Source of the DNA: a virus | Taxonomy: Duplodnaviria; Heunggongvirae; Uroviricota; Caudoviricetes | IMG/VR virus record: IMGVR_UViG_3300027896_000022 | Coordinates: 17,954-81,953 of that record | Reading direction: 5' to 3' (one strand) | Length of the DNA: 64,000 nt | Part shown: piece after piece, positions 4,398 through 62,982 of the stretch | Numbering within the stretch: position 1 is the stretch's first letter | How the letters are laid out: each line of letters starts with the position of its first letter | Translations under genes and position numbers: made by a program | Notes under the pieces: generated by a model | Seen by the model: only the letters and a program-made list of their open reading frames with translations | Databases searched by the model: none | Told to the model about the DNA's origin: nothing

Positions 4398-4772
4398 TTA
4401 CTGATTACCCATATGACTGAACTCATTAAGAATTCCTTTTTGAAGACACTTTAAAGCATTGATAAATTGTTCTATGTTGGCTAAGTGGCATTTGGCTTGT
4501 TCAGCTGTATAGGCTTCATCTGAAGCCTCTGCAATGCTCTTGGCCTTAGCACTGCTAAGTTGCTTGCCAGTTGCCTCATCTATTTGGGCTTCAGCATCTC
4601 TAACTATTAAGGCATAGGCTCTTTCAGCTAAAACACGCTTTAAATTATGTTCAGCATAATATTGAGCCATCCTAACGACAATTTCACCAACTTCCTCACC
4701 GGTTACCTGACCAGTGCTATAATCTTTAATAAATTTTGTATATTCTTCAATGTATGGTAATGTTTCTGACAT
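4398..4772 (-). CDS. Hypothetical protein
   Basis: 124-aa ORF, tightly packed with neighbours. Confidence 0.5.
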   Translation of the reverse strand: MSETLPYIEEYTKFIKDYSTGQVTGEEVGEIVVRMAQYYAEHNLKRVLAERAYALIVRDAEAQIDEATGKQLSSAKAKSIAEASDEAYTAEQAKCHLANIEQFINALKCLQKGILNEFSHMGNQ

Positions 4773-10054: not shown

Positions 10055-11056
10055 TTATTTTATTAAGTCATATCCAGCCTGAAGTTTGGCTAAATCAATC
10101 TTTTTTTCCTTGGAATAAATTGCCATTAGGTTGCCTATTTCCAGATTCAAATCGTCATCAGAAAATTTAATTATTTTCCTTTCCGTTTTGTAGTCTTCTA
10201 TCAGAATAGAGCCATCGTAATTGGCTAATTCCTTTTTAAGGGAGGTTAAGTCATTTTCAGTAGGTTTTTTTGTTAAAATCAATTTAATTATAGAGTTTTT
10301 AGGGAATCCCTTAAAAGTGACAGGATCTTCTACTTTAATAATGCTTCTTCCTGGCAAAATACATTCTATAATTTTTCCATCATCCATAATATAGACATAT
10401 CCCGGCCCTTCATTTATCTCTTGAGCAAAAATACTTCCTGCATAAAGTATATTACTTTTTGTATCGCAATAGGCCGTATGTATATGGCCGCAAAAGATAT
10501 TCTCATACATCTTGGTTATCTTTGCCCTTGGCAGGACAATTTCATTCAGGTCGTCAGTTCTGATTCCTTTAATATTATGACCTGAAATAGCATGATGTAT
10601 AAACAAATTTTTGCCTTTAGGCAGCATTTTTAGAAGCTTTTCTGAGGCTTCTTCATGCGTACCGCATTCCAATTCACCCTTGTAAAAATAAGGGCAGAAA
10701 ACATCACCATCTATTTCAACTATCTCGTTAGTAATAATATGCCATCTTTTATTTTTAACTTCTTTCATGAAATCAATGGCACTTTTACCATCACCAACTT
10801 TTTCATGATTACCAGCCAATATATAAATATCCTGTTTAAATTTTTCAATAAACTGAACAAACTCTCTTATGACTTCAGACGGATTATTACGGCCATTTAG
10901 TTGATCGCCAAGAAAAATAACCTTATCGCAGCCTTTACTTGCAGCAAAAATAAAATTTAAAACTTCTTCCTTTTCTTTCTTTCTGCCATCGGCAACAAAA
11001 TCGGCATAACCCATTTTTTCTTTAAGATGTAAATCACTAACTATTAAATATTTCAT
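10055..11056 (-). CDS. sbcD: SbcD/Mre11-like calcineurin-type nuclease
   Basis: Carries the phosphoesterase motifs IVSDLHL, GDQLNGRN and GNHE. Confidence 0.8.
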   Translation of the reverse strand: MKYLIVSDLHLKEKMGYADFVADGRKKEKEEVLNFIFAASKGCDKVIFLGDQLNGRNNPSEVIREFVQFIEKFKQDIYILAGNHEKVGDGKSAIDFMKEVKNKRWHIITNEIVEIDGDVFCPYFYKGELECGTHEEASEKLLKMLPKGKNLFIHHAISGHNIKGIRTDDLNEIVLPRAKITKMYENIFCGHIHTAYCDTKSNILYAGSIFAQEINEGPGYVYIMDDGKIIECILPGRSIIKVEDPVTFKGFPKNSIIKLILTKKPTENDLTSLKKELANYDGSILIEDYKTERKIIKFSDDDLNLEIGNLMAIYSKEKKIDLAKLQAGYDLIK

Positions 11057-11132
11057 ACAAGCCCTTGCGGGCTGCCTCTCTAGCCAGTCTAAAATGACTA
11101 GAGAGGCAGAAGAAGATGGTGTAGATAGTTTA

Positions 11133-11792
11133 TTAGATAGACTTTAACTTAGCTAAAATAGCATCAAGGTTAGCCGGAATAAAATCCAAGCTAGTCTTTT
11201 CCTTGATTTTAGCTTTTACCTCTTCAGTGCTGACAGCGCCAAGCTTGCTTTTCGCCAAGTTAGCAATCTCTTTAATTTTGTCAGAATCTGAAACCAAAGA
11301 GGCTTCTAAGATAGCCTCAGCAGTGATTTTATCAGGAAAAATTTCCTTAGCCGTCATGCCCGCTGTCGGGTTTTCCTCTTTTGCTTGTTCTTTCAACCAT
11401 TCTTCATCCTTATATTTGGGATCATGAACGATCCGGATGAATTTAGTCGGCTGCTTTCCAGGATTATCCTTGGTTCCGGTAAAAATGAAACCAACAATGT
11501 CACCTAGAGAGCAATTGTCCAATTCGTTCAAAAGACCGGTCTTGTTGTGTCTAATAGACACAGTTTTGATGGTCTTGTCTGGCTGTAGAAGACTGACCAA
11601 AGTCTGGGCATTCTTGTAGCCATCGATCGAATTGTCGTCTCTTTTAATTAAGGTTCCTTGAACCTTGTCGCCGATGTTGACGAATTTGAAGAAATCTTTC
11701 GATTCTTCATAATCCACCTCATCGAAAATGTTTACTGGCATGCTGTTTTGTCGTTTAGCTAACAGGCTGTATATGCTGTATAGCAGATCCAA
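11133..11792 (-). CDS. Hypothetical protein
   Basis: 219-aa ORF. Confidence 0.5.
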   Translation of the reverse strand: MDLLYSIYSLLAKRQNSMPVNIFDEVDYEESKDFFKFVNIGDKVQGTLIKRDDNSIDGYKNAQTLVSLLQPDKTIKTVSIRHNKTGLLNELDNCSLGDIVGFIFTGTKDNPGKQPTKFIRIVHDPKYKDEEWLKEQAKEENPTAGMTAKEIFPDKITAEAILEASLVSDSDKIKEIANLAKSKLGAVSTEEVKAKIKEKTSLDFIPANLDAILAKLKSI

Positions 11793-12254: not shown

Positions 12255-12283
12255 ATTATACACCCGTGTAAAATATTTGTCAA
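12255..12283 (-). promoter_or_regulatory. Sigma70-type promoter: TTGACA, a 17-nt spacer, then TATAAT
   Basis: The minus strand reads cTTGACAaatattttacacgggtgTATAATatg. Confidence 0.6.
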
Positions 12284-14019
12284 GAGGGTAGGGTGGATTT
12301 ACCTTCCTTGACAATTCTTCTCTTTTCTTTCAATTCGATAGATTTAATAATACTGCTTGCATAACTTTTAAAACCTTCTCTGGGTATTTCCGCACCGTCA
12401 ATTAACTGATCAAAAAGCAATTGTTTCTTGCCTAATAATTTAAACATATATTCATCCACTGTCTTCTTAGAATAAAGCTGATAAATGGTTATATGCTCAG
12501 AGGTAGAACCGATACGGTGGATTCTATCAATTGCTTGAGAATGGTCTGCTGGAGTCCAAGAATAATCCAGAAAGACAACATTAGTGGCAGCTGTCAGGTT
12601 AATGCCGACACCAGCACTTTTAATTCCGCCAAAAAAAATCTTTAATTTTTCTTTGGATTGAAATTCATTTACTATATTATTTCTTTCTTCAGCGTCAATC
12701 TTCCCTGTCACTAAGACAGAAATATCCTTAAAATATTTATGCAACTGCTCTAAAGGTTCATTATAACAGCTAAAGACAACTACTTTTTCGCCATTCTCAA
12801 TGATATTTTGAATAATTTCTTTGCTTTGTTCTATCTTACCCAAGCTGCTTAATTGCCTTAAAGCACCTAATTTTACTAACTTTTCAGCTTGCATTGATCG
12901 AGCTGCTTCTTTTTCTGTCTTCTTTTTAATATTAATCAAAAACCGGCCAAATTCTTCTTCCGCCATCTTGTATTTTTCAGCTATCACTGGATCAAGCTCT
13001 AATGGATGATAGATGAATCTTTTCTCAGGAAGATCAGGCAGAATTTCTTTTTTTGATCGTCTGATAAAATACGGACTGATACGTTCCTGCAATTCTGTAA
13101 TATTAGTTGAACCTCGATCGTCCCAGCCAAATCTTCCCATATGGCCGTTGCAATATCTTCGGCTATAGGCGTAATAATCAAACCAGTTTTTAGGATCCAA
13201 GGTATTCAATGGATTAAACAATTCTATCGGGCGGGAAAGAAATGGAGTTCCGCTTAACATCAAAATTTTAGGAATATGTGCCACCAATTTTTTTGTCGCC
13301 CTGCTTCTGAAAGCTGATTTATTTTTAATATAATGAACCTCGTCCAAAATGCATGCTTCCCAAGAAATGCTACTTAAAACCTTAAAGAATTTTTTTAGTA
13401 TATCATAATTGATTACGAAAATCTGATGTTTATTTATATTCTCTATAACAGTAAGCTCTTTCTCATCGCTATCAATCACCATAACTTTTAAATCTGTCCA
13501 TTTTTCTACTTCAGCTTTCCAGTTATATTTGACAACAGCCGGACAAATAACCAATGTTTTTTTTATATCAGAATGAGTAATATAAGCCAAGGCTTGAACT
13601 GTTTTGCCCGCGCCCATTGGGTCGCTGTTCATGGCCCTGCCATTGCTATTTATAAAAAATTCTACACCTACCTTTTGATAAGGAAGAAGTTCCCCCTTAA
13701 TGCCTTTAATTTTAATATTTGATTCTTTTGTTTTCTTTAAACGATCGGCATTTGCTTTGGCTAAAATAGCTTCTTTTGTCAAGTATCGAGCCAGTTCATA
13801 TTCCATTTTTATTTCTTCATCTATTTCTATTTCTGGATAGCGATCTTTCAATTCTACAGCAAAGTCAATGTCGGTAAATCGCCAAGCACCGTTTAAAAAA
13901 GAAAAACGCTTAAAACCATATTTATCGCTTAGGTATTTGCAATATTCAACCATTTCATAGTCAAACTTAAAAGACAATGAATAGCTATATCCAGTTGTAT
14001 TATTTCGTTCTATTTTCAT
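12280..14019 (-). CDS. SNF2-family (SWI2/Rad54-like) helicase
   Basis: Walker A DPMGAGKT, DEAH-box-like DEVHYIKN, and C-terminal helicase motifs. Confidence 0.8.
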   Translation of the reverse strand: MKIERNNTTGYSYSLSFKFDYEMVEYCKYLSDKYGFKRFSFLNGAWRFTDIDFAVELKDRYPEIEIDEEIKMEYELARYLTKEAILAKANADRLKKTKESNIKIKGIKGELLPYQKVGVEFFINSNGRAMNSDPMGAGKTVQALAYITHSDIKKTLVICPAVVKYNWKAEVEKWTDLKVMVIDSDEKELTVIENINKHQIFVINYDILKKFFKVLSSISWEACILDEVHYIKNKSAFRSRATKKLVAHIPKILMLSGTPFLSRPIELFNPLNTLDPKNWFDYYAYSRRYCNGHMGRFGWDDRGSTNITELQERISPYFIRRSKKEILPDLPEKRFIYHPLELDPVIAEKYKMAEEEFGRFLINIKKKTEKEAARSMQAEKLVKLGALRQLSSLGKIEQSKEIIQNIIENGEKVVVFSCYNEPLEQLHKYFKDISVLVTGKIDAEERNNIVNEFQSKEKLKIFFGGIKSAGVGINLTAATNVVFLDYSWTPADHSQAIDRIHRIGSTSEHITIYQLYSKKTVDEYMFKLLGKKQLLFDQLIDGAEIPREGFKSYASSIIKSIELKEKRRIVKEGKSTLPS

Positions 14020-14242
14020 TGATGAGGTCTCTTATATTAGCCAGACTATGTCCAGCCTTTCTTAATTTTTGCATCCTGTCCCAGGTAGCCAAGATTTTCT
14101 TTTCTTCAAACAAGGCAGCCTTTCCGGCATACATATCCGGAATTAAAATGCCCATTTGAACATAATAAATCAAGGACGATTTTTTGACCTTTAACATCTT
14201 GCTTAAATCAAGTAAAGTGACGTAATTAATTTTTGTTACCAT
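14000..14242 (-). CDS. Small MerR/excisionase-like HTH protein
   Basis: 80-aa ORF. The N-terminal LLDLSKMLKVKKSSLIYYVQMGIL is HTH-like. Confidence 0.4.
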   Translation of the reverse strand: MVTKINYVTLLDLSKMLKVKKSSLIYYVQMGILIPDMYAGKAALFEEKKILATWDRMQKLRKAGHSLANIRDLINENRTK

Positions 14243-14271
14243 TTTTTTATGATTAATTTTTTAACTCTTTA

Positions 14272-14300
14272 ATTATACACCTATATAAAATAGTTGTCAA
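14272..14300 (-). promoter_or_regulatory. Sigma70-type promoter: TTGACA, a 17-nt spacer, then TATAAT
   Basis: Minus strand reads cTTGACAactattttatataggtgTATAATt, upstream of the 14242 start. Confidence 0.55.
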
Positions 14301-14556
14301 GTAAGATATTTTCTGATGGGGGACGGCAAGTCGTCAGCTTTGCTCGTGGCCAGAAAAAACTTCAAAGAAAATTCCAACCACGGCGGACCGCTTGGCCGAA
14401 GGGGGGATTCATTTCCCCACTTGCCGCACCCTCATCAAAAAAACAAAAACTAATTGGCTTAATAATCTATCGTGCGTTCAATTAACTTAGCCGGAAATAG
14501 CCCGAAAGGAACCTAATACCTTTGCACACGTTCCGGAACCAATTGGAGAGTTTTAG

Positions 14557-14628
14557 ACCAGGTAACAGAAATCGGACCTGCTTCATGAGATTGGAAATCT
14601 CAGGTAATAACCATTATACGATACCTGG
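14557..14628 (-). tRNA. tRNA-Gly (anticodon TCC). The cloverleaf was folded by hand. CCA is not encoded.
   Basis: Reverse complement reads ccaggta tc gtat aatggtta ttac c tgaga tttccaa tctca tgaa gcagg tccgatt tctgt tacctgg t. It has a 7-bp perfect acceptor stem, U8, A14, GG in the D-loop, U33 and A37. The T-loop is atypical. Confidence 0.45.
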
Positions 14629-14755
14629 GGCAAGGGAAGACAAAGCTTCCCTCACTGAATGGCTCAGCCATCTATAGTTGGCTTCAGCTGATTTAATCCT
14701 GGATGGCTCTAGAGGCTCATCGCAGCCTTCCAACACGCCAGGAACCAATTTTATA

Positions 14756-15058
14756 TTAAAACCACCGTTCTTCGTCAGTTCTCTTATCTTCAGGCTCTGG
14801 CACAGAAGCCTCAAATTGGCTCATAATTTGCATTAATTGCTCGCCTACGTGTTTGTGGTTAAAAAGGTTGGCATGCGTCTTGTCAGCCTTCTTTTGGACG
14901 GTATTTAAGGCTTTAATCATATCCTTGACGACAAAATGCAATCTTTCTATCTTTTGGTCAACTGTGGCCTTAATCCAAGGGACCATTTGTTCGTTGTTTG
15001 TAGGTGGTGTCATTTCTGCAGCCATTTGCACAATTGGCGGCTTAACATTTTTTGGCAT
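14756..15058 (-). CDS. Hypothetical protein
   Basis: 100-aa ORF. Confidence 0.4.
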   Translation of the reverse strand: MPKNVKPPIVQMAAEMTPPTNNEQMVPWIKATVDQKIERLHFVVKDMIKALNTVQKKADKTHANLFNHKHVGEQLMQIMSQFEASVPEPEDKRTDEERWF

Positions 15059-15073
15059 AATTTTTTTAATTAA

Positions 15074-15238
15074 TTATTTATTTGAATCATATATTTCTTT
15101 TAAACTTTTTCCATCATCATTGGCGGCCAAGGCTTTGTCGGCTATTTCTTCATGTTCTTGGCACCAGGCGATATAAAGATCACCAAGTCTTACCCATCCA
15201 TCCACTTCTTTTTTACAATTTTTGATAAAACATTTCAT
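15074..15238 (-). CDS. Small hypothetical protein of 54 aa (MKCFIKNCKKEVDGW...). It is not in the ORF track.
   Basis: ATG-to-stop ORF on the minus strand in an otherwise empty gap. It is Cys-containing. Confidence 0.25.
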   Translation of the reverse strand: MKCFIKNCKKEVDGWVRLGDLYIAWCQEHEEIADKALAANDDGKSLKEIYDSNK

Positions 15239-15347
15239 AGTTTTTAATTTTTTAAAAAATTAAAAGTATTAAGAAGCCCTAAAAAAGTCATAATTATTAA
15301 TACTATAATGGCAATCCAATAAATGATGTCCCCTATTTTCATAAAAT

Positions 15348-17566: not shown

Positions 17567-17705
17567 ATTTTTACTTTTTAATTATTCCGCCATTTTCCCA
17601 TTCCATATAATTAGATGGGGGCATAGTGATTTTTTTAACTTTTACTGGTTTTTTAATCGGCTTTTTCTTTTTAACCATAAAATTAATTTTTATTAGCTTT
17701 CCTAT

Positions 17706-17734
17706 ATTATACACCCGTGTAAAATATTTGTCAA
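17706..17734 (-). promoter_or_regulatory. Sigma70-type promoter. The 30-mer is identical to the one at 12255-12283.
   Basis: Minus strand reads cTTGACAaatattttacacgggtgTATAATatagg. Confidence 0.6.
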
Positions 17735-17825
17735 GAGAGGGATAGAATTAATGCCATTTTGTCAAGTTGTAGGATTTGTGCTATAATGTAAAAAAATATT
17801 ATAATAAAAATAACATTATCTAATT

Positions 17826-35278: not shown

Positions 35279-35441
35279 AATTTTATTTCGTTATGCTTTT
35301 GACATAACTGTCAAGTGATGTCTTAATGCGATTATTTTTAATATTAGCCTCTAATTGAAGTTTGGCCCGCTGGGCGAAGTTCTTTGAGGCAGCATTTTTA
35401 TTTCATGGCATCTTTGACAGTTATGTCAAGTTTAGCGTTTG

Positions 35442-39679: not shown

Positions 39680-40033
39680 TTATTTTATTCTGCCTAAGAA
39701 GAATATGGTCTGCTTGTCCAGTTGGATTTCGCCCCGCATGTCTTCTTCGTACAGGTAATTAATTATTTCTTGGTTGCTGCCTTGTTCGTCTTGTAATTGA
39801 TTGACAGCCATCTCGCATTTGTTTATTCTTCCTGTCATGCTTTGTTTGCCGTCATGATAATTGGTTACGGCCACCAGCGTGATAAACGCTAAGCCCAGTA
39901 GTACGAAGATTGTTTTCGTAATGCATTCTTTCATAGTTGTATTGTTAATTATTAAATGCTTTTGCCTTATAGGCAAAAGCTCAAAAAAATAGTAAAAGAA
40001 AAGAAGGGAAGAAATAAATCTTCCCTTCTTCAT
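39680..40033 (-). CDS. Small membrane or secreted protein. The true start is probably internal (MKECITKTIFVLLGLAFITLVAV).
   Basis: Hydrophobic helix. Confidence 0.35.
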   Translation of the reverse strand: MKKGRFISSLLFFYYFFELLPIRQKHLIINNTTMKECITKTIFVLLGLAFITLVAVTNYHDGKQSMTGRINKCEMAVNQLQDEQGSNQEIINYLYEEDMRGEIQLDKQTIFFLGRIK

Positions 40034-40188
40034 TCGTCACTCGCCTTGATCAATGTCGGCTCCGTAAAAATCACTTGTGTGACTTGGCACGGCTTGATGA
40101 TTGTCGGTCCCAGCGAAATTGTTTTGCTGGGCAGATAAGCGAAAGAAAAGACTGCGGAAAGAGCAATGATTGATAATGCTAAACGCAT
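40030..40188 (-). CDS. Small secreted or signal-peptide protein of 52 aa (MRLALSIIALSAVFSFAYLPSK...). It is not in the ORF track.
   Basis: A strong SD (aggagga) lies 6 nt upstream of the ATG. It has an N-terminal signal-like helix. The overlapping 91-aa track ORF 40037-40312 in the other frame is probably spurious. Confidence 0.4.
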   Translation of the reverse strand: MRLALSIIALSAVFSFAYLPSKTISLGPTIIKPCQVTQVIFTEPTLIKASDE

Positions 40189-40301
40189 GCTTCCTCCTTG
40201 TTTGATTGTTGGTTATAATGCTTTCATTTATAAGACAGAATTCCAAAAAAATAGTAGTCAAAGAAAAAGGGGAAGGCATTGCTGCCTTCCCCTTAGTTCT
40301 T

Positions 40302-40484
40302 TTACTTGGCAATGACTCTGGTGCCTTTCTCTTTCAAACCGGCGATGAACGCTTGGTTATTCATGAGTGAGCAGCGATTGTCAATCTTGGCAAAACTGTA
40401 TTCTCTCATTTTGCCGTCTTTGCCTTTGCAAGTGCCTTCGAATATAACGAAGTCGCTCGCGCGTAATTCTTGGATAGGGTCCAT
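40302..40484 (-). CDS. Small hypothetical protein
   Basis: 60-aa ORF. Confidence 0.3.
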   Translation of the reverse strand: MDPIQELRASDFVIFEGTCKGKDGKMREYSFAKIDNRCSLMNNQAFIAGLKEKGTRVIAK

Positions 40485-40646
40485 AGAAATAAAATTATGA
40501 AAGGCTTAATTGCCTTTTCTGAAAAATTAGTAGTTATATAAATTGATTAAAGATTGCCGGCTGAAGGCCGTAACCGTTACGGGGAATTCAGCCTATGTGA
40601 TTAAGCCGTTAGGCTTATATATTGATGCTTGAAAAGCTATCAATAT

Positions 40647-40805
40647 TCAGGCCTGCTCAGGCTCGATGCCGCACATTTCAAACGGACGCGCTTCCTGGTC
40701 AACAGTGAAGCAGTGTCCGCATTCGCAAGTGATGCCTTCTTCTATCTCTTGCCCAGCGATGAAGCAAGGCTGATTGCAAAGAGGGCAATTGTAGAAACTT
40801 AACAT
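40647..40805 (-). CDS. Small zinc-ribbon protein of 52 aa (MLSFYNCPLCNQPC...CECGHC). It is not in the ORF track.
   Basis: ATG-to-stop ORF on the minus strand in a GC-richer patch of the 650-bp intergenic region. It has CxxC...CxCxxC. Confidence 0.3.
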   Translation of the reverse strand: MLSFYNCPLCNQPCFIAGQEIEEGITCECGHCFTVDQEARPFEMCGIEPEQA

Positions 40806-54124: not shown

Positions 54125-54352
54125 ATGCCTAATATTTATCCGTATTATAATGAGCCAACCCACGACCAGGGTAATGCCATTACATTAACGGCTCCAAATG
54201 CTGGGCGTACTTCCAAGACTGCGTCTGATGAGCAAAGGCTTATCGTCGATGCGGTTGACAAAATATTCTTACTCGAACCGAACAAGCATCCATTAGTTAC
54301 TCTTTTGACAAATGTCGGAAAAGTATACGATAAACAATTACTGTCGTATTAA
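54125..54352 (+). CDS. Major capsid protein exon 1. The ORF as called runs a few codons into the intron.
   Basis: It is followed by a group I intron. The capsid-like exon 2 continues at ~55380. Confidence 0.45.
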   Translation: MPNIYPYYNEPTHDQGNAITLTAPNAGRTSKTASDEQRLIVDAVDKIFLLEPNKHPLVTLLTNVGKVYDKQLLSY

Positions 54353-55385
54353 AATCGGGTTAATTCGGGGAAACTCTTTAGTAGACAATCCCGACCCAAG
54401 ATATTCAGGAATGAATATAAGGGCTAACGACTAATAGCATACCGCCAGAACGGCGATGAAGCTAACAAGAAATCCCGAAGCCAGAGATGGCTAAGATATA
54501 GTCTGAACATCATAGTGATATGATGAAACATAGGATAAAGAGCCTATGGTGATAACATTATAGGGTAAAGCTTGGAAAGGATCTTCCATGTTGAAAGCTT
54601 CAACTGGAAATCCGGAGTTTAAGTGGTTTTTTAGGCTTATATTAGCCGAGAATAAGTAATTCTTTGGACCACTATAAAATTAGCTATTTGCTGGAACACC
54701 CTAAAGGCTTGCGTACCATAGAAGAACATGATACAATGTAATCTATGGTAAAAATCTCAAGCATACAAAAAGTGGGCAATCAGCAGGTAACATCTACAAC
54801 TCTCGCATGGCTTGCGGGAATTTGGGATGGTGAAGGTACTTTTGGTATTTACGGATATCCTAATGGAAAAAAAAGAAGGATGTATTATTGTGGAAGAATG
54901 ACATTATCTAATACTTCTCCTTTAATGATTGATGAAATAATTAGGATTATGGAGTTGTTGGGAGTAAAAGTTGATGTTTGGAAAGAAAAAAAATCACGTA
55001 AAGAGAATCATAAAAAGGCCGTTCATCTTACATTAAATCGAATTGATTCAGTTAAAATGGTATGTGAATTATTAATTCCATACTTAGTTGCAAAAAAAGA
55101 TAGGGCAGAATTATTGTTAAAATTTCTTAATTCTCGTTTAACTTATAAAAGAAAAGTAAAACGAGATCCTGCCACAGGTCATATTCTTGGGGTTATTGAA
55201 CAAGGATATCCTAAAATAGATATTGCAATGTGGAAAAAAATGAGAGACTTGAATCAAGTAGGTATTGTTGTAGATGGTTCCTCAGAGACTACACGCTAAT
55301 CCTCTGGTAACAGAGTGATGATATAGTCCGAACTCACGCGAAATCGTGAGAGTTGTACAGAAATGATACAACCTCTTAATTGAGT
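54340..55385 (+). mobile_element. Group I self-splicing intron carrying a LAGLIDADG homing endonuclease ORF. The boundaries are approximate.
   Basis: Group I core elements are present: an R-like gggctaacgactaatagca at ~54420 and an S-like gatgatatagtccgaac at ~55318. The ~400-nt 5' part is structured and non-coding. It interrupts a capsid-like reading frame. Confidence 0.6.
54745..55299 (+). CDS. LAGLIDADG homing endonuclease, encoded within the intron
   Basis: Contains LAWLAGIWDGEGTFGIY, a single LAGLIDADG motif, and is a 184-aa basic protein. Confidence 0.7.
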   Translation: MVKISSIQKVGNQQVTSTTLAWLAGIWDGEGTFGIYGYPNGKKRRMYYCGRMTLSNTSPLMIDEIIRIMELLGVKVDVWKEKKSRKENHKKAVHLTLNRIDSVKMVCELLIPYLVAKKDRAELLLKFLNSRLTYKRKVKRDPATGHILGVIEQGYPKIDIAMWKKMRDLNQVGIVVDGSSETTR

Positions 55386-56390
55386 AACAAAAGCGAAGAC
55401 TATTACGGTGGAAGATACGCGCGCGTTGCAGCTGATTATGCAATTGGTGCAGCCTCATTTACTGTAACTGGAGCAGGTTCCAGTTCAGGTTACATATTTT
55501 CAATTGGTGATGTCGTTAAAAATGCCCGCACTGGTGAAAATATGTTGGTTACAGCTGTTGCTGCCAATACGATTACTATTACTAAAGCATTTGGTACTAC
55601 AGCTGATTCAGCTGGTTTAGCTGGCGATGGAATTTTCATCGTTGGTAATGCCAATGAAGAAAACTCGGGTGCTCGCAGTGTGAACTCCACACAGAGCACA
55701 CCGCAGACCAACTACACTCAGATATTTAAAACAACCATTGCTTTGTCTAACACTGAAAAGGAAGCCAATCTCTATGGAGGTAAAGACTTGCCTTATCAGA
55801 GAGCTAAGAAAGGCACTGAACATGCTTTGGATATTGAACGTGCATTTTGGTTTGGTCAGAAGAATTATGCCGCTGGCTTCAATGGCCCACAAGGCCATCC
55901 GAGACGCCAGACTGGTGGTGTTTTGGAATTCATTGAAGGGGGAAATTCCTATGTTCAGAATCAGGGTGGTGCTTTGACTGCTCCGGATTTGAACACTTTC
56001 TTGCGTGAAGGTTTCACTTATGGCAACTCTGAAAAGATGTTGTTCTGCGGTGGTTACGTCTTGCAAGCTATTAACGAAATTGCTCGTGGACAAATTTTGA
56101 TGAAACCGGTTGAGTCTACCTATGGGATGAAAATTTCTCAATGGGTGACCGCTTTCGGGACTGTCAATATTGTCCATAATCCGCTTTTTGTTGAAGAGTA
56201 CGCCGGTTATGCGTTCTTGCTGGATATGGAAAGCTTCAGATATCGCTTTATGAATAATCGCGATACTCAGTTGCAGACCAATATTCAAGCTCCGGATGCT
56301 GACGGCGAGGTGGATCAATACATCACTGAGTGCGGTCTTGAGAGAAAACAGTCTCCGAGACATGCTTTACTTAAGGGTGTCTTATCCTGA
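55380..56390 (+). CDS. Major capsid protein exon 2. The true exon start is a few nt downstream of 55380.
   Basis: 336-aa ORF following the intron. It is Gly/Thr/Asn-rich like capsid proteins, and its position follows the scaffold. Confidence 0.5.
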   Translation: MSNKSEDYYGGRYARVAADYAIGAASFTVTGAGSSSGYIFSIGDVVKNARTGENMLVTAVAANTITITKAFGTTADSAGLAGDGIFIVGNANEENSGARSVNSTQSTPQTNYTQIFKTTIALSNTEKEANLYGGKDLPYQRAKKGTEHALDIERAFWFGQKNYAAGFNGPQGHPRRQTGGVLEFIEGGNSYVQNQGGALTAPDLNTFLREGFTYGNSEKMLFCGGYVLQAINEIARGQILMKPVESTYGMKISQWVTAFGTVNIVHNPLFVEEYAGYAFLLDMESFRYRFMNNRDTQLQTNIQAPDADGEVDQYITECGLERKQSPRHALLKGVLS

Positions 56391-56545
56391 AGTAATTTAG
56401 TTTCTTAATTTTCATCGAGTTAAGATATTCACTACCCGGCGGCCTGAAGAAAAATGGCTGCCGGGTAGGGGCCTGAGTCCCCTACCCCGACATGGCTACG
56501 GGTCATTAGCCGGTTTAATAAATCGATGTTTAATCAAATAAGAAT

Positions 56546-57429: not shown

Positions 57430-58170
57430 ATGCCAAGTTTAAACGAATCATACATCAGACATGAATTGACCAGAGGTGTTATTGGTCAAGTGCTTGATGA
57501 TGCGCCTGTATTATTTAAATTAAAGTATATTGGTGGTGGCACAGTTACTTCGGTAATTGTAACTGCTGCTACTGATATTACGTTAGTTTCATCCTATGCT
57601 GGCACTACCAGCACTGATGCTTTTCATTGGGCGGCTCCAGCAACTTATACTACCGTTCGTCTGATGGTTGATGCTATTAATAATACGGGAAGATGGGAAG
57701 CTAAAATCATGGATGCCTTATCTACTACTACTTTAGGTGCTAACTTAATGATAGGCGGGACCTTAGTAGTAAATGCTGATGGAGAATATGAAGTAGTGTC
57801 TGATACTAGTAATGCCAAATTTATGGCTTACAGATTGTCTTATGACAGAACTTTCAAGAATACCAGATCGTTAAGAAATGGTCATAGAGTAAGCATTAAA
57901 GAAATCGTCACTAATCTTACTTTGGGTGGTGGCGCTGACACAAATTCATTTAAGATTTATGAGTGTACTCCAGGTGGCAATACTGCACCTTATGGTGGAG
58001 CTGAAATTTTAGTTCTGCAAAGAACGCCGACCACTGGTAGTGCTGAAACTGTTACTTGGGCTTCGGGCAAAGGTAAAATTACTGCCGAAGAAGGTAATGA
58101 TTTATTAACTATCATTACTGATTCCGGTAGTATTACCGGCTCTATAACAGTTAATGGTGAATTAGAATAG
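57430..58170 (+). CDS. Structural protein, paralog B
   Basis: It starts MPSLNESYIRHELTRGVIGQV and is colinear with 56546-57280. Confidence 0.5.
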   Translation: MPSLNESYIRHELTRGVIGQVLDDAPVLFKLKYIGGGTVTSVIVTAATDITLVSSYAGTTSTDAFHWAAPATYTTVRLMVDAINNTGRWEAKIMDALSTTTLGANLMIGGTLVVNADGEYEVVSDTSNAKFMAYRLSYDRTFKNTRSLRNGHRVSIKEIVTNLTLGGGADTNSFKIYECTPGGNTAPYGGAEILVLQRTPTTGSAETVTWASGKGKITAEEGNDLLTIITDSGSITGSITVNGELE

Positions 58171-58272
58171 TTTAGGGTTTGTAGATAGTCAAACCTCGGG
58201 GGTGAGGAAGGCGAAAGTTATAAATCGCCTTCCTCATTAAGAGGAATATGAATAATAATTAATTTTAAAACT

Positions 58273-58812
58273 ATGAAATTTGTTTCCAAGAATTCAAATC
58301 TTAGAGTTGTTTTAAGACCAGGTATTCCGGCAAATCAAATGTCAGGAATTGCGGGTCAGCCTGGATTATATGTCAAATTCCAGAATGGAATTGTAGACAT
58401 AAAAGATGAAGATTTAATAAAGAAAATGCACGATCATCCTGGTTTTAATACTGATTATATTGCGGTTGACGATAACGGAGAGGATCCGTTTGCTGCGCAA
58501 AGAGAGGAGATAGAACCAGTTCATGTCCTTCAAGATATAAGATATGGACATGCTGAAAATAAAAGATTATCTCCAAACAGAAAAATTAGGATTGATCCTC
58601 AAGTTCAAAAATTAGTTGATGACTTGGCGGTTAAAAAGGTTAATGAAATGCTACCTAAAATGGTGGAAGAAACTGTTAAAAAAATGATTGAGATGGCTGA
58701 TGCTAAAGCTAAAGTTAAACAGGAATCTTCTGAAAAAAATGAAGAGGTTGAAGTGGAATTAGAAGAGGAACCAGTTGCAAAAAAAATAGGCAGGCCTAAA
58801 AAGGTAGAATAG
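58273..58812 (+). CDS. Hypothetical structural-module protein
   Basis: 179-aa ORF. Confidence 0.45.
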   Translation: MKFVSKNSNLRVVLRPGIPANQMSGIAGQPGLYVKFQNGIVDIKDEDLIKKMHDHPGFNTDYIAVDDNGEDPFAAQREEIEPVHVLQDIRYGHAENKRLSPNRKIRIDPQVQKLVDDLAVKKVNEMLPKMVEETVKKMIEMADAKAKVKQESSEKNEEVEVELEEEPVAKKIGRPKKVE

Positions 58813-59472: not shown

Positions 59473-62400
59473 ATGTCTTTACCTATTTATGTTCCGATAG
59501 CAGCCCCGGGAGGTGTAGGTGGTTCTACTGGTTATACAGGTTACACTGGTTACACTGGTGATGCCGGATCAGCAACTGATACTGGTGCTACCGGTTACAC
59601 TGGTTATACTGGTTACACTGGTTACACTGGTGATCCAGGAGCGGCAACTAATACCGGTGCCACTGGCTACACTGGTTATATTGGTGATACTGGTTACACT
59701 GGTTATACTGGTGCTGGTGCTTTTACGGGCGCTACTGGTTACACTGGCTACACTGGTAGAACAGGTTATACGGGTTATACAGGTTATACAGGTGATGCTG
59801 GTAATATAGGTCACACTGGTTACACTGGCCCTACTGGTTACACTGGCTATACTGGAGAAGGAGCTTTCACTGGTTATACTGGCTACACGAGTTATACTGG
59901 TTATACCGGTTATACTGGTGATGCTGGATCGGCGACTGATACAGGTGCTACCGGCTACACTGGTGCTACTGGTTACACTGGTTACACTGGTGCTGGTGGT
60001 TTTACTGGTTATACTGGTTACACAGGTGCTGGTGCTTTTACTGGTTATACAGGTTACACTGGTCCTCTTGGTGCTACTGGTGATACGGGCAATAAAGGAA
60101 ATCAAGGTCCTACTGGTTTTACTGGTTTTACTGGTTACACTGGTTATACTGGAGTAGGTGCTTTTACTGGTTATACTGGTTATACTGGATATACTGGTTA
60201 CACAGGAGATACTGGTTATACAGGTTATACTGGTTATACTGGTGCTGGTGCTTTTACTGGTTATACTGGCTACACCGGTGAAACAGGTTATACTGGCTAC
60301 ACTGGCTATACTGGTGATACAGGTGCTGGTGCTTTTACAGGATATACTGGATATACTGGTGAAACAGGTTATACTGGCTACACTGGTTATACTGGTGATA
60401 CAGGTGCTGGTGCTTTCACGGGATATACGGGATATACTGGTGACACTGGTGATATCGGAGATCAAGGTGACACTGGTTACACTGGTTATACAGGTTACAT
60501 TGGTTACACTGGCTACACTGGTGACACTGGAGATCAAGGTGATACAGGCTACACTGGTGACACTGGAGATATTGGCTATACTGGCTACACTGGTGACACT
60601 GGAGATCAAGGTGATACAGGCTACACTGGTGACACTGGAGATATTGGCTATACTGGCTATACTGGAGACACTGGAGATAAAGGTGATACAGGCTACACTG
60701 GTGACACAGGTGACATAGGTTATACTGGTTACACTGGTTATACTGGATATGGTGACACTGGATATACAGGTGATACAGGTGATACAGGAAATCAAGGTGA
60801 TACTGGTTACACTGGTTATACTGGATATACAGGTGATACAGGTGATACAGGAAATCAAGGTGATACTGGTTACACTGGTTATACTGGATATACAGGTGAT
60901 ACAGGTGATACAGGAAATCAAGGTGATACTGGTTACACTGGTTACACTGGTTATACAGGTGACACTGGTGATACGGGAAATCAAGGTGATACTGGTTACA
61001 CTGGTTATACTGGATATACAGGTGATACAGGTGATACAGGAAATCAAGGTGATACTGGTTACACCGGTTACACTGGTTATACAGGTGACACTGGTGATAC
61101 GGGAAATCAAGGTGATACTGGTGACACCGGAGACCAAGGTGACACAGGCTATACTGGCTACACTGGCTATACTGGATATGGCGACACTGGCTATACTGGT
61201 GACACTGGAGATCAAGGTTCTACTGGTTATACTGGCTACACTGGATATGGCGACACTGGCTATACTGGTTACACTGGTTATACTGGTGATAAAGGAGATG
61301 CAGCACTTACTGGTGCCACTGGTTACACTGGCTATGTTGGTTATACTGGTGATACTGGAGATCCAGGATCAGCAACTGATACTGGTGCCACAGGCTATAC
61401 TGGTTATACTGGTGATACTGGTTACACTGGCTATATAGGTTATACAGGCTTTACGGGTTATACTGGTTATACAGGTGATACCGGTGCTGGTGCTTTTACG
61501 GGTTATACAGGTTATACAGGTCGTACAGGATATACTGGCTATACTGGTTATACAGGTGCTGGTGCTTTTACTGGTTACACAGGTTATACAGGTGATACAG
61601 GTTATACTGGTTACACTGGTCGCACTGGCTATACGGGTTATACTGGTTATACTGGTACTACGGGATATACTGGTAGAACTGGTTATACAGGTTACACGGG
61701 TTATACTGGCTATACAGGTTATACCGGTGCTGGTGCTTTTACAGGCTATACTGGTTATACTGGTACTACAGGATATACTGGATATAGTGGTTATACTGGT
61801 ACTACCGGATATACTGGTTATACTGGTCCTGGTGCTTACACTGGCTACACTGGATACACTGGATATACTGGTTATACTGGTCCTGGTGCTTATACTGGCT
61901 ATACTGGATACACTGGATATACTGGTTATACTGGTGCTGGTGCTTATACTGGTTATACTGGATATAGTGGTTACACTGGTACTACAGGATATACGGGATA
62001 TACTGGTTATACTGGTGCAGGAGCTTTTACTGGCTACACTGGTTATAGTGGTTACACTGGTCCCACAGGTTACACTGGCTACACTGGTCGCACTGGCTAC
62101 ACTGGTACTACTGGTTATACTGGTTATACAGGTACTGGTGCTTTTACTGGATATACTGGATATACTGGTGGAACAGGTTATACTGGTTATACTGGACCAG
62201 GTGCTTACACAGGTTACACGGGTTATACTGGCTATACAGGTTATACTGGAGGAACTGGTGCTGGTGCCTTTACGGGTTATACTGGTTATACTGGCTACAC
62301 TGGTTACACTGGCTATACGGGTGCTGGTGCTTACACTGGCTACACTGGTTACACGGGTTATACGGGCCGCACAGGTTATACTGGTTACACGGGTTATACA

Positions 62401-62982
62401 GGTGATGCTGGTAACGTAGGCCATACGGGTTATACAGGTTATACAGGTACTACAGGTTATACAGGCTACACTGGTATTGGAGTTACTGGCTACACTGGTT
62501 ATACTGGACCTCAAATATTAACTACTTCAACAACGACGAACTTAACTGGTTTCATAAAAGGAAACGGGTCTGTTCTTAGTGCTGATAATACAACTTATGC
62601 ACCATTAGCTTCTCCTGTTTTTACCGGGAAAGCGACTATGAGTGGGAGTGATACAATTGGTAATATTTATAATCCTGATACTGGAGCTAAAAATGTTACG
62701 ATAGATTGTTCTACCCATAATATGCATATTGTTAATGGCCATACGGATGGAACGGCTATCACCTTCTTAGTGTCTAATGCCACTAATAATCAAGTATTCA
62801 TTGTTTCTGTTCTTCAAGGATCTGGAACAGTTTCAACGATTTCAGGATGGTTTGCTACAGTTAGATGGGTAGGAGGAACTACTCCAACTCTTACGGCAAC
62901 TCTTAATAAAAGAGATACTTTTGGATTTATTAGAACAGGTACAAATACTTATGATGGGTTTATAATCGGGCAAAATTGTTAA
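59473..62982 (+). CDS. Collagen-like Gly-X-Y repeat fiber protein of 1169 aa, with a C-terminal ~155-aa non-repetitive beta-rich domain. It is a candidate tail fiber or receptor-binding protein.
   Basis: About 1000 residues are uninterrupted G-X-Y triplets, mostly G-Y-T, with G-D-T, G-A-G and G-N-Q also present. The non-collagen C-terminus begins [21 protein letters not shown]. Confidence 0.7.
60760..61140 (+). repeat. Six near-identical tandem 63-nt repeats inside the collagen-like gene, each encoding [21 protein letters not shown]
   Basis: Direct reading shows ggttacactggttatactggatatacaggtgatacaggtgatacaggaaatcaaggtgatact repeated with 0-3 substitutions. Confidence 0.8.

What the first reader, a model, noticed from the sequence alone, without database searches (positions are those of the whole stretch)
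14300..14760. GC-rich non-coding island containing a tRNA-Gly(TCC) and additional structured-RNA-like sequence
About 460 nt between two minus-strand genes is markedly GC-richer than the surroundings. A 72-nt minus-strand cloverleaf (14557-14628) folds with a perfect 7-bp acceptor stem and anticodon TCC. The remaining sequence contains long-range complementary segments, such as ggcaagt at 14318 and acttgcc at ~14421 enclosing ~100 nt, direct repeats ggaaccaatt twice, and hairpins. It is not convincingly coding.
Basis: seen in the sequence. Interest (0 to 1): 0.55.

Follow-up and report, generated by a model that had tools for sequence, protein, structure and literature searches.

The report
Phage tRNA flanked by novel RNAs
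A 460-base gene-free stretch of an uncultivated phage holds an ordinary glycine tRNA gene plus two small folded-RNA elements that match no known family, recur in a few related phages, and have no known function.

Summary
Window 14300-14760 has no gene, is GC-richer than its flanks, and carries tRNA-Gly(UCC) on the minus strand at 14557-14628 (ARAGORN; Rfam 48.7 bits).

The rest is organised, all on the gene (minus) strand, in this order:
- motif B, about 95 nt and Y-shaped
- a GC hairpin
- the tRNA
- element A, 134 nt, closed by a stem of about 22 bp
- a perfect sigma-70 consensus promoter

B recurs in two related metagenomic phages at the same position. Ten pairs keep pairing through changes on both sides (0 of 500 shuffles reach this). 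A has one homologue in another relative, at a different position, with five such changes in its closing stem. Neither matches any Rfam family (tmRNA, RNase P, 6S, group I, YrlA, GOLLD, ROOL, hammerhead) or any annotated phage.

Best reading: a small non-coding RNA locus co-transcribed with upstream genes and then processed. The functions of A and B are unknown. The families are tiny (four and two copies), so this is a modest, credible lead and not a discovery.

The parts
14657..14750 (-). Motif B, copy 1. A Y-shaped RNA: outer helix UGGU/GCCA, arm Pa with sub-hairpin Pb, and arm Pc with a 16-nt loop GAAGCCAACUAUAGAU. It follows directly after the stop codon of the 100-aa gene.
   Evidence: Orthologous copies in L012 (2339-2437) and L201 (4343-4446; an independent covariance-model hit, 75.9 bits). 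On a MAFFT alignment of 4 copies, 86% of cells are paired against 25-54% for slid partners, and 10 pairs change on both sides against 3.8 +/- 1.4 in shuffles, 0 of 500. No Rfam hit.
14630..14655 (-). GC-rich hairpin ending 1-5 nt before the tRNA 5' end (1 nt here as predicted; about 3-5 nt in L011, L012 and L016).
   Evidence: Predicted. L011, L012 and L016 each have a hairpin of different sequence at the same place; L201 has only a weak 4-bp candidate (my reading). No U-tract follows, and the terminator scan found 0 sites.
14557..14628 (-). tRNA-Gly, anticodon UCC.
   Evidence: ARAGORN and Rfam RF00005 at 48.7 bits. The acceptor stem covaries among relatives: C1-G72 in the window and L012, G1-C72 in L011 and L016. 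The score is lower than in relatives (56-61 bits) because of two T-arm substitutions, U55C and C61U.
14452..14544 (-). Motif B', a diverged paralogue of B (about 60% identity), directly downstream of the tRNA.
   Evidence: Collinear alignment of about 98 nt, z = 9.2, 0 of 2000 shuffles and 0 of 5063 natural windows. Helices are kept through compensatory changes. Its own folding z-score is weak, -0.5.
14309..14442 (-). Element A. The closing stem P1 has about 22 bp: an outer A/U helix, GGG/CCC, then the inner GGCAAGU/ACUUGCC. Hairpin a (GGGG..CCCC) is stacked after the 5' strand. A proposed helix P2 (UCGGC/GCUGA) carries a variable distal hairpin.
   Evidence: MFE -61.3 kcal/mol, z = -4.3; rank 3 of 8514 windows; single copy in the window. 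Homologue at L016 2236-2450: 28.8 bits, E about 4e-6, with exact blocks TTCGGCCAAGC and AGCAAAGCTGA. 98% of cells are paired and 5 pairs change on both sides, all in P1. 5 G.U cells and 0 A.C cells.
14272..14300 (-). Perfect sigma-70 consensus promoter, TTGACA-17 nt-TATAAT, for the MerR-like gene and the SNF2 helicase. It marks the downstream end of the island.
   Evidence: 12 of 12 matches. The surrounding motif of about 50 nt recurs at other intergenic sites of this phage and in relatives.
14756..15058 (-). Upstream 100-aa gene of unknown function, ending ...ERWF*. It is the conserved left neighbour of B and the tRNA.
   Evidence: ORF list; no Pfam family. Homologues precede B or the tRNA in L011, L012, L016 and L201.
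14000..14242 (-). Downstream 80-aa MerR-like HTH gene, overlapping the start of the SNF2 helicase (12280-14019).
   Evidence: Pfam MerR_1 at 23.2 bits and SNF2-rel_dom at 121 bits. This gene pair is conserved in all relatives.

Best explanation
The island is a compact non-coding RNA locus of an uncultivated SU10/phiEco32-like podophage. It encodes one genuine tRNA-Gly(UCC), two copies of a Y-shaped RNA module of about 95 nt (B and B') that bracket the tRNA, and a 134-nt RNA (A) closed by a helix of about 22 bp.

Shown:
- All parts lie on the gene strand.
- No promoter-like site was found inside the island.
- B and A are each conserved in a few related phages with compensatory base changes.
- The island ends at a consensus promoter.

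Inferred:
- The locus is transcribed as the tail of the upstream operon and then cut up.
- RNase P and 3' processing enzymes release the tRNA.
- The GC hairpin just upstream of the tRNA then caps and protects the 3' end of the upstream mRNA.
- The long P1 duplex of A works as an RNase III-type processing stalk, as in rRNA precursors and T7 early mRNAs. It would excise or stabilise a small RNA carrying the conserved junction.
- B serves as a structured leader placed in front of each RNA gene (B before the tRNA, B' before A).

What A and B do after that is unknown. Their neighbourhood is a variable slot that in relatives holds tRNAs, RtcB, an RNA ligase and Fic. That points to tRNA or RNA metabolism during host takeover, by analogy with other phage RNAs of unknown function found in tRNA islands.
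For: tRNA; acceptor-stem covariation; GGA+GGG make up 39-46% of the phage's Gly codons.

B/B' duplication.

B family and structure. 10 pairs change on both sides, 0 of 500 shuffles, on an alignment not fitted to the structure.

A: z = -4.3; rank 3 of 8514 on the minus strand against the top 1.2% on the plus strand; homologue in L016 with two exact 11-nt blocks found nowhere else in 202 loci; 5 pairs in P1 change on both sides; the L016 copy folds better on the gene strand, z -3.2 against -1.7.

Strand: G.U against A.C cells are 10:4 for B and 5:0 for A.

Non-coding; indels not in multiples of three; no gene called in public records.

No internal promoter or terminator, and a 12/12 promoter at the end of the island.

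Precedent for small stable RNAs directly after phage tRNAs: T4 rnaC and rnaD.
Against: The families are tiny: B has 3 lineages plus 1 paralogue, and A has 2 lineages. The covariation statistics are therefore weak and could partly reflect shared ancestry.

B has unremarkable folding energy on its own (z -1.5, and -0.5 for B').

A's helix P2 and hairpin a never vary, so they are untested.

This phage has many other very stable intergenic hairpins, so stability alone is not special here.

Both elements are absent from most relatives, including some that keep the tRNA, so they are dispensable.

There are no expression data. RNase III, RNase P and the protective-hairpin roles are all inferred from general knowledge.
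Confidence: 0.6

Rival explanations
1. Apart from the tRNA, the island is functionless filler. On this view B/B' is a decaying tandem duplication, A is one more of the generic stable hairpins this phage places between transcription units, and the similarity to relatives is only shared ancestry.
For: Few sequences. B' and B fold weakly. The phage has many strong intergenic hairpins, including another element with a 23-bp closing stem at 35292-35440. A and B are patchy among relatives. The tRNA itself is eroding in this clade: 48.7 bits here, and undetectable in L201.
Against: Changes on both sides that preserve pairing exceed shuffled and slid controls for B and occur 5 times in A's P1. A's two internal blocks are identical over 11 nt each while the sequence between them differs completely in length, 45 against 115 nt. 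That pattern is selective constraint, not uniform decay.
Confidence: 0.2
2. Element A is a small selfish mobile element (MITE-like, or a relic of one). Its terminal inverted repeats would be recombinase sites, and it would have inserted at different intergenic places in different phages.
For: Inverted termini of about 22 bp. It occupies different positions in the two phages: after the tRNA here, and upstream of a Fic gene in L016. It is absent from syntenic relatives. It is GC-richer than its host genome.
Against: It is single-copy in 64 kb and was not found in about 2 Mb of other loci. The outer stem differs in sequence between the copies yet stays complementary, with G.U but no A.C cells. 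That fits selection on an RNA helix, not on two protein-binding sites. I saw no clear target-site duplication in the window, though this was by inspection only.
Confidence: 0.1
3. Element A is a transcription terminator or insulator that closes the upstream operon just before the strong promoter.
For: It lies immediately upstream of a 12/12 consensus promoter. Gene ends in this phage carry long GC hairpins without U-tracts.
Against: No U-tract follows the stem on the gene strand, and the terminator scan finds 0 sites. Other copies of the same promoter motif have no such element in front of them, for example directly after the helicase stop. In L016, A sits directly before the Fic start codon, and I saw no consensus promoter between them. 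A conserved multi-helix junction is more than termination needs.
Confidence: 0.1

Closest known systems
Phage T4 small stable RNAs rnaC (species 1, 139 nt) and rnaD (species 2, 119 nt)
   Same: They are encoded on the same strand directly after the last tRNA of a phage tRNA cluster and are of similar size. To my knowledge their function is still unknown. rnaC also folds strongly, z = -4.6.
   Different: No sequence similarity to A or B: all local alignments fall within shuffle noise. rnaC carries a canonical T-arm, CCGGGUUCGAAUCCCGG, which A and B lack.
GOLLD and ROOL RNAs (Rfam RF01998, RF03087)
   Same: Structured RNAs of phages and prophages, of unknown function, 'often near tRNA islands'. 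tRNAs are sometimes embedded between GOLLD domains (PMC12286853, PMC5737381), much as the tRNA here sits between B and B'+A.
   Different: They are much larger (about 580 to over 800 nt) and ornate. Neither model matches the island even at E<=10.
Bacterial and phage Y RNA-like RNAs (YrlA, RF02553)
   Same: Size of about 80-130 nt. A long stem is formed by the 5' and 3' ends. They are found in phages and linked to RNA-repair loci (PMC4201824). Relatives of this phage carry RtcB or an RNA ligase in the same variable region, and L016 has a weak YrlA-like hit in its tRNA cluster.
   Different: A has no T-arm-like or D-arm-like stem-loops and no YrlA hit at E<=10. No TROVE/Ro60 protein appears among the ORFs of suitable size.
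RNase III processing stalks (rRNA precursor stems; phage T7 early-mRNA sites)
   Same: A duplex of about 20-25 bp, formed by sequences flanking a stable RNA and interrupted by small internal loops, inside a polycistronic transcript. This comparison rests on my own knowledge of these systems.
   Different: Cleavage has not been shown here. The host and its RNase III are unknown.

Membership tests
tRNA (RF00005) | Cloverleaf with a 7-bp acceptor stem and a 7-nt anticodon loop; score above the Rfam gathering threshold | tested here: met
   48.7 bits against a threshold of 29; ARAGORN reports Gly(tcc).
tRNA (RF00005) | Near-universal T-arm positions (U55, G53-C61) that form the D-loop/T-loop elbow | tested here: inconclusive
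   The window reads GGUCCGAUUUC where relatives read GGUUCGAUUCC: C55, and G53.U61. The fold is kept but the score is 8-12 bits below relatives. Aminoacylation cannot be tested here.
YrlA / Y RNA | Long stem formed by the 5' and 3' ends | tested here: met
   P1 of about 22 bp.
YrlA / Y RNA | Conserved T-arm-like and D-arm-like stem-loops; match to RF02553 | tested here: not met
   No YrlA hit at E<=10. No GGUUCGA-type loop in A.
YrlA / Y RNA | Encoded next to a Ro60/TROVE-domain gene | tested here: not met
   The neighbours are a MerR-like gene and an SNF2 helicase. No TROVE domain appears in 29 ORFs scanned.
GOLLD / ROOL | Match to the family covariance model; size of about 580-800+ nt | tested here: not met
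   No hit at E<=10. The whole island is 460 nt including the tRNA.
GOLLD / ROOL | Located in a phage or prophage beside tRNA genes | tested here: met
   PMC12286853.
Hammerhead ribozyme | Core CUGANGA ... GAAA around a three-helix junction with a NUH cleavage site | tested here: not met
   CUGACGA (window) and CUGAUGA (L016) are present next to P1. However, the stem's other strand is followed by U-GGGG, not GAA; CUGA is paired in the proposed P2; and no hammerhead model hits at E<=10.
Intrinsic (Rho-independent) terminator | GC-rich hairpin followed at once by a U-tract on the transcribed strand | tested here: not met
   0 sites in 13900-15300. A is followed by AGAAAAUAUC.
MITE-like mobile element | Several dispersed copies with conserved terminal inverted repeats and target-site duplications | tested here: not met
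   Single copy in the window. Only one other copy in about 2 Mb of loci. The outer termini differ between the copies.
Retron ncRNA (msr-msd) | Reverse-transcriptase gene immediately downstream of an RNA with terminal inverted repeats | tested here: not met
   The downstream genes are MerR-like and an SNF2 helicase; in L016, a Fic gene. No RT among the scanned ORFs.
   ARAGORN finds no tmRNA. Rfam at E<=10 on 14150-14900 returns only the tRNA and two noise hits. The one group I intron in the window is elsewhere, at 54297-54525.
T4-type small stable RNAs | Accumulates as a discrete stable RNA processed from the tRNA transcript | not testable with these tools
   The layout is the same but there is no sequence similarity. 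Expression data are needed.

The most novel reading that the evidence does not exclude
A and B are two previously undescribed classes of phage tRNA-island RNAs, each with a dedicated function. A would be a stable RNA excised by RNase III, whose invariant three-way junction (CCYUUCGGCCAAGC / AGCAAAGCUGAYGA) binds a host or phage factor or is catalytic. B would be a compact Y-shaped fold held by a pseudoknot, acting as a tRNA-like processing or decoy module placed in front of RNA genes.
Probability: 0.3. Interest if true: 0.6.

Novelty: new variant of a known kind. Interest (0 to 1): 0.42.

Why it matters
Phage tRNA islands repeatedly harbour structured RNAs whose purpose is still unknown, such as T4 rnaC and rnaD, GOLLD and ROOL. 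Two further small, tractable motifs of about 95 and 134 nt, found in a lineage with no cultured member, add independent examples of that association. Each has a defined consensus fold and invariant junction sequences, and both are small enough for direct biochemical work: probing, RNase III and RNase P assays, and pull-downs. If they act on tRNA or RNA-repair pathways during infection, they would help explain why phages keep such RNAs beside their tRNAs. The tRNA itself is ordinary.

Tried and rejected
1. Known RNA families. Rfam at gathering level on the whole window, and at E<=10 on the island, gives only the tRNA. The 'mir-9235' hit merely reflects the long stem.

2. More tRNAs or tRNA-like remnants in the island: none.

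3. DNA similarity to 50,697 annotated phages. Only generic tRNA-Gly matches for the island, and none for the L016 A copy or the L201 B copy.

4. IMG/VR exact or gapped patterns for A and B: no true hits. 120 matches to the gapped stem pattern and 35 genome matches to the B pattern were chance, as shown by BLAST, nhmmer and covariance-model screening.

5. Extending the B/B' duplication into the hairpin arms of A. A gap-permissive alignment was unconvincing, so I dropped the idea.

6. MAFFT alignment of the two A copies misplaced the 3' block. I used the model-guided alignment instead, which leans towards the structure.

7. Pseudoknot in B (GUUGG/CCAAC; CGUGUG/CGCACG in B'). It is present in all copies, but by my own rough estimate such complementarity would arise by chance in about 10-40% of loop pairs of this size. 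I kept it only as a possibility.

8. Hammerhead, Y RNA, retron, terminator and MITE readings: see the membership tests.

9. Thermodynamic strand test for B: uninformative. I replaced it with G.U against A.C counts.

10. T4 rnaC and rnaD homology: none.

11. Coding potential. Only short ORFs on the opposite strand or lacking a start context; not called in public records.

Full report
OBSERVATION. The stretch between the minus-strand genes 14756-15058 (100 aa, no Pfam family) and 14000-14242 (80 aa, MerR-like HTH, overlapping an SNF2 helicase at 12280-14019) contains no credible ORF. Gene callers left it empty on two public contigs with 100% identical sequence. Its GC is 0.453, against 0.28-0.36 in the flanks and 0.373 +/- 0.052 for the window. 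That is locally obvious but not extreme, since 5.5% of windows are at least as GC-rich. ARAGORN and Rfam both find tRNA-Gly(UCC) at 14557-14628 on the minus strand (48.7 bits, gathering score 29) and no other known RNA. An Rfam search of 14150-14900 at E<=10 returned only noise besides the tRNA.

CONTEXT. The window is a tailed phage. It has an SU10/P22-type portal, an SU10 major capsid protein, a primase-helicase, RecA, SbcCD-like nucleases, RuvC and a phiEco32-type ligase. No cultured phage is close; the best helicase identity is 31%. Relatives exist only in metagenomes, on contigs up to about 90 kb, with helicase identities of 54-85%. I fetched about 25 syntenic loci. The MerR-like, helicase and SbcD block is conserved. 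The region upstream of it is a variable slot that carries, in different relatives, tRNA clusters, RtcB, an RNA ligase, Fic, an ExoX-like nuclease or small ORFs.

THE tRNA. tRNA-Gly(UCC) sits at the same position, after a homologous gene ending '...EKWF*', in L011, L012 and L016. Its acceptor stem covaries: C1-G72 in the window and L012, G1-C72 in L011 and L016. GGA+GGG make up 39-46% of this phage's glycine codons. The window's copy scores 8-12 bits below its relatives because of two T-arm substitutions, GGUCCGAUUUC where relatives have GGUUCGAUUCC. In standard tRNA numbering these are U55C and C61U. In L201 the homologous sequence has lost recognisable D- and T-loops and is no longer detected. 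The gene is therefore real and probably functional here, but the clade tolerates its decay.

ANATOMY OF THE REST (minus strand, 5' to 3'). B (14750-14657) lies upstream of the tRNA and B' (14544-14452) lies downstream. The alignment score is 19.5, against 7.8 +/- 1.3 in dinucleotide shuffles (0 of 2000) and a maximum of 16.5 over 5063 natural windows of the same phage. A GC hairpin (14655-14630) ends 1-5 nt before the tRNA 5' end; L011, L012 and L016 each have a hairpin of different sequence there, while L201 has only a weak candidate. After B' comes element A (14442-14309). Directly after A comes a 12/12 sigma-70 consensus promoter (14300-14272), whose surrounding motif recurs at other intergenic sites. 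No promoter-like or terminator-like site lies inside the island. The layout is therefore two tandem units, B-hairpin-tRNA followed by B'-A.

MOTIF B. Orthologous copies lie directly after the EKWF gene in L012 (the same contig family as L013 and L019) and in L201. A covariance model built without the L201 copy found it at 75.9 bits. The consensus is a Y shape: an outer helix (UGGU/GCCA, invariant), arm Pa with a terminal sub-hairpin Pb, and arm Pc closing an invariant 16-nt loop. On a MAFFT alignment of the four copies, 86% of cells pair, against 25-54% when partners are slid. Ten of 24 pairs change on both sides, against 3.8 +/- 1.4 in shuffles (0 of 500), and all three variable helices covary. 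A loop-loop pairing (GUUGG/CCAAC; CGUGUG/CGCACG in B') is kept in every copy, but by my own rough estimate it could be chance. G.U cells outnumber A.C cells 10 to 4, which favours the gene strand. Single-sequence folding energies are unremarkable. The model finds no other copy in the window, in about 45 related loci, or among pattern-selected loci from viral and genome collections.

ELEMENT A. On the minus strand it folds to -61.3 kcal/mol (z = -4.3). It ranks third of 8514 GC-corrected windows of the phage, whereas the plus strand is only in the top 1.2%. It is single-copy in the window. A single-sequence covariance model found one homologue, L016 2236-2450. That copy sits in an uncalled gap between a 128-aa ORF and a Fic gene, about 0.9 kb upstream of that phage's tRNA-Gly. 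Two blocks are conserved: GG(C/U)AAGUGGGG..CCCC(C/U)UUCGGCCAAGC and AGCAAAGCUGA(C/U)GA(A)CUUGCC. The exact 11-mers co-occur nowhere else in 202 loci. The sequence between the blocks is 45 nt in one copy and 115 nt in the other. The shared architecture is a closing stem P1 (outer A/U helix, GGG/CCC, small internal loop, inner GGYAAGU/ACUUGCC), hairpin a stacked after it, and a helix P2 (UCGGC/GCUGA) that carries the variable domain. Across the two copies, 98% of cells pair, against 42-57% when slid. Five P1 pairs change on both sides. P2 and hairpin a never vary, so they are untested. There are 5 G.U cells and no A.C cells, and the L016 copy folds better on the gene strand, z -3.2 against -1.7.

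WHAT IT IS NOT. There is no match to tmRNA, RNase P, 6S, group I, YrlA, GOLLD, ROOL or any ribozyme model. The conserved CUGAYGA next to P1 recalls the hammerhead core, but the GAAA element and the topology are missing. A shares only the long terminal stem with Y RNAs (features taken from PMC4201824), and no TROVE protein was found. No U-tract follows A. A is not a dispersed repeat. T4 rnaC and rnaD share the layout, small stable RNAs directly after the last tRNA, but no sequence.

INTERPRETATION. The shown facts are the tRNA, the duplication, the two conserved folds, their strand, and the terminal promoter. The rest is inferred. I infer co-transcription with the upstream genes, followed by processing. 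RNase P and 3'-end enzymes would free the tRNA. The GC hairpin would become a protective 3' end for the upstream mRNA. P1, at about 22 bp, would act as an RNase III-type stalk that excises or stabilises A. B would precede each RNA gene as a structured leader. Function beyond that is unknown. The association with tRNAs and RNA-repair cargo, and the precedents of GOLLD and ROOL 'often near tRNA islands' (PMC12286853, PMC5737381) and of T4 rnaC and rnaD, suggest a role in RNA metabolism during infection. The main rival is that A and B are dispensable filler shaped by ancestry and by this phage's habit of placing strong hairpins between genes. The very small families cannot exclude this.

VERDICT. 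The tRNA is ordinary. The two flanking motifs are credible candidates for new small RNA families, but they rest on four copies and two copies and have no expression data. Interest is moderate.

Noticed in passing
window 54297-54525 (+), with ORF 54745-55299 (+) and 55380-56390 (+): A group I intron (Rfam 61.6 bits) is followed by a LAGLIDADG homing-endonuclease ORF. It lies just upstream of the SU10-type major capsid gene, whose Pfam match starts only at profile position 47. The capsid gene may therefore be split by the intron.
   Followed up: partly
window 14252-14301 (-), about 12255-12284 (-), about 17682-17735 (-); also L010 3681-3711 and 5735-5767, and L012 3708-3739: A motif of about 30-50 nt containing a perfect TTGACA-17-TATAAT promoter recurs at several intergenic sites in this phage and its relatives. 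It is probably a family of strong early promoters.
   Followed up: partly
window 35292-35440 (+): An inverted repeat forms a 23-bp closing stem around about 100 nt with inner hairpins (MFE -55.6, z = -8.0). Both arms contain TTGACA. The architecture resembles element A but the sequence is unrelated.
   Followed up: partly
window 11050-11140 (-), 58165-58280 (+), 56430-56470 (+): Long, perfect, GC-rich hairpins of 13-14 bp at gene ends with no U-tract (z -4.9 to -6.7). They may be this phage's terminators or RNA-stabilising elements.
   Followed up: partly
window about 39886-40650, mostly (+): A cluster of strongly structured 147-nt windows in a region with only small overlapping ORFs (38.7-41.5 kb). 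Rfam at E<=1 gives only noise.
   Followed up: partly
L016 884-1002 (+): A weak YrlA (Y RNA-like) hit (32.2 bits, gathering score 69) with T-arm-like and D-arm-like hairpins, inside a six-tRNA cluster next to an RNA-ligase gene. It may be a Y RNA-like or degenerate tRNA-like RNA in a relative.
   Followed up: partly
L201 about 4481-4553 (+): This homologue of the tRNA-Gly keeps the acceptor and anticodon stems, but its D-loop lacks GG and its T-loop reads GGCAGCA. Neither ARAGORN nor Rfam detects it, so it is a decaying or repurposed tRNA.
   Followed up: partly
L010 2407-3681; L016 1-784 and 2457-2972; L201 2779-3288; L207 735-1271: The variable slot upstream of the MerR-helicase block carries RtcB, an RNA ligase or Fic-domain genes in different relatives. 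This suggests an RNA-repair or host-takeover cargo region.
   Followed up: partly
Helicase homologues P0006, P0025, P0037, P0060, P0076 and others: Several orthologues of the SNF2 helicase are 750-940 aa long and carry intein or homing-endonuclease domains (PF14890, PF14528, PF13392). The window's copy has none.
   Followed up: no
L201 33-127 (-) and 424-747 (-): ARAGORN reports an odd 'tRNA-???' with a two-base anticodon, and Rfam gives a weak manA-RNA hit (21.9 bits, E = 0.09), next to tRNA-Thr and tRNA-Tyr.
   Followed up: no
window 59473-62982 (+): A 1169-aa protein with about 20 collagen triple-helix repeats, probably a fibre. It skews the glycine codon counts.
   Followed up: no
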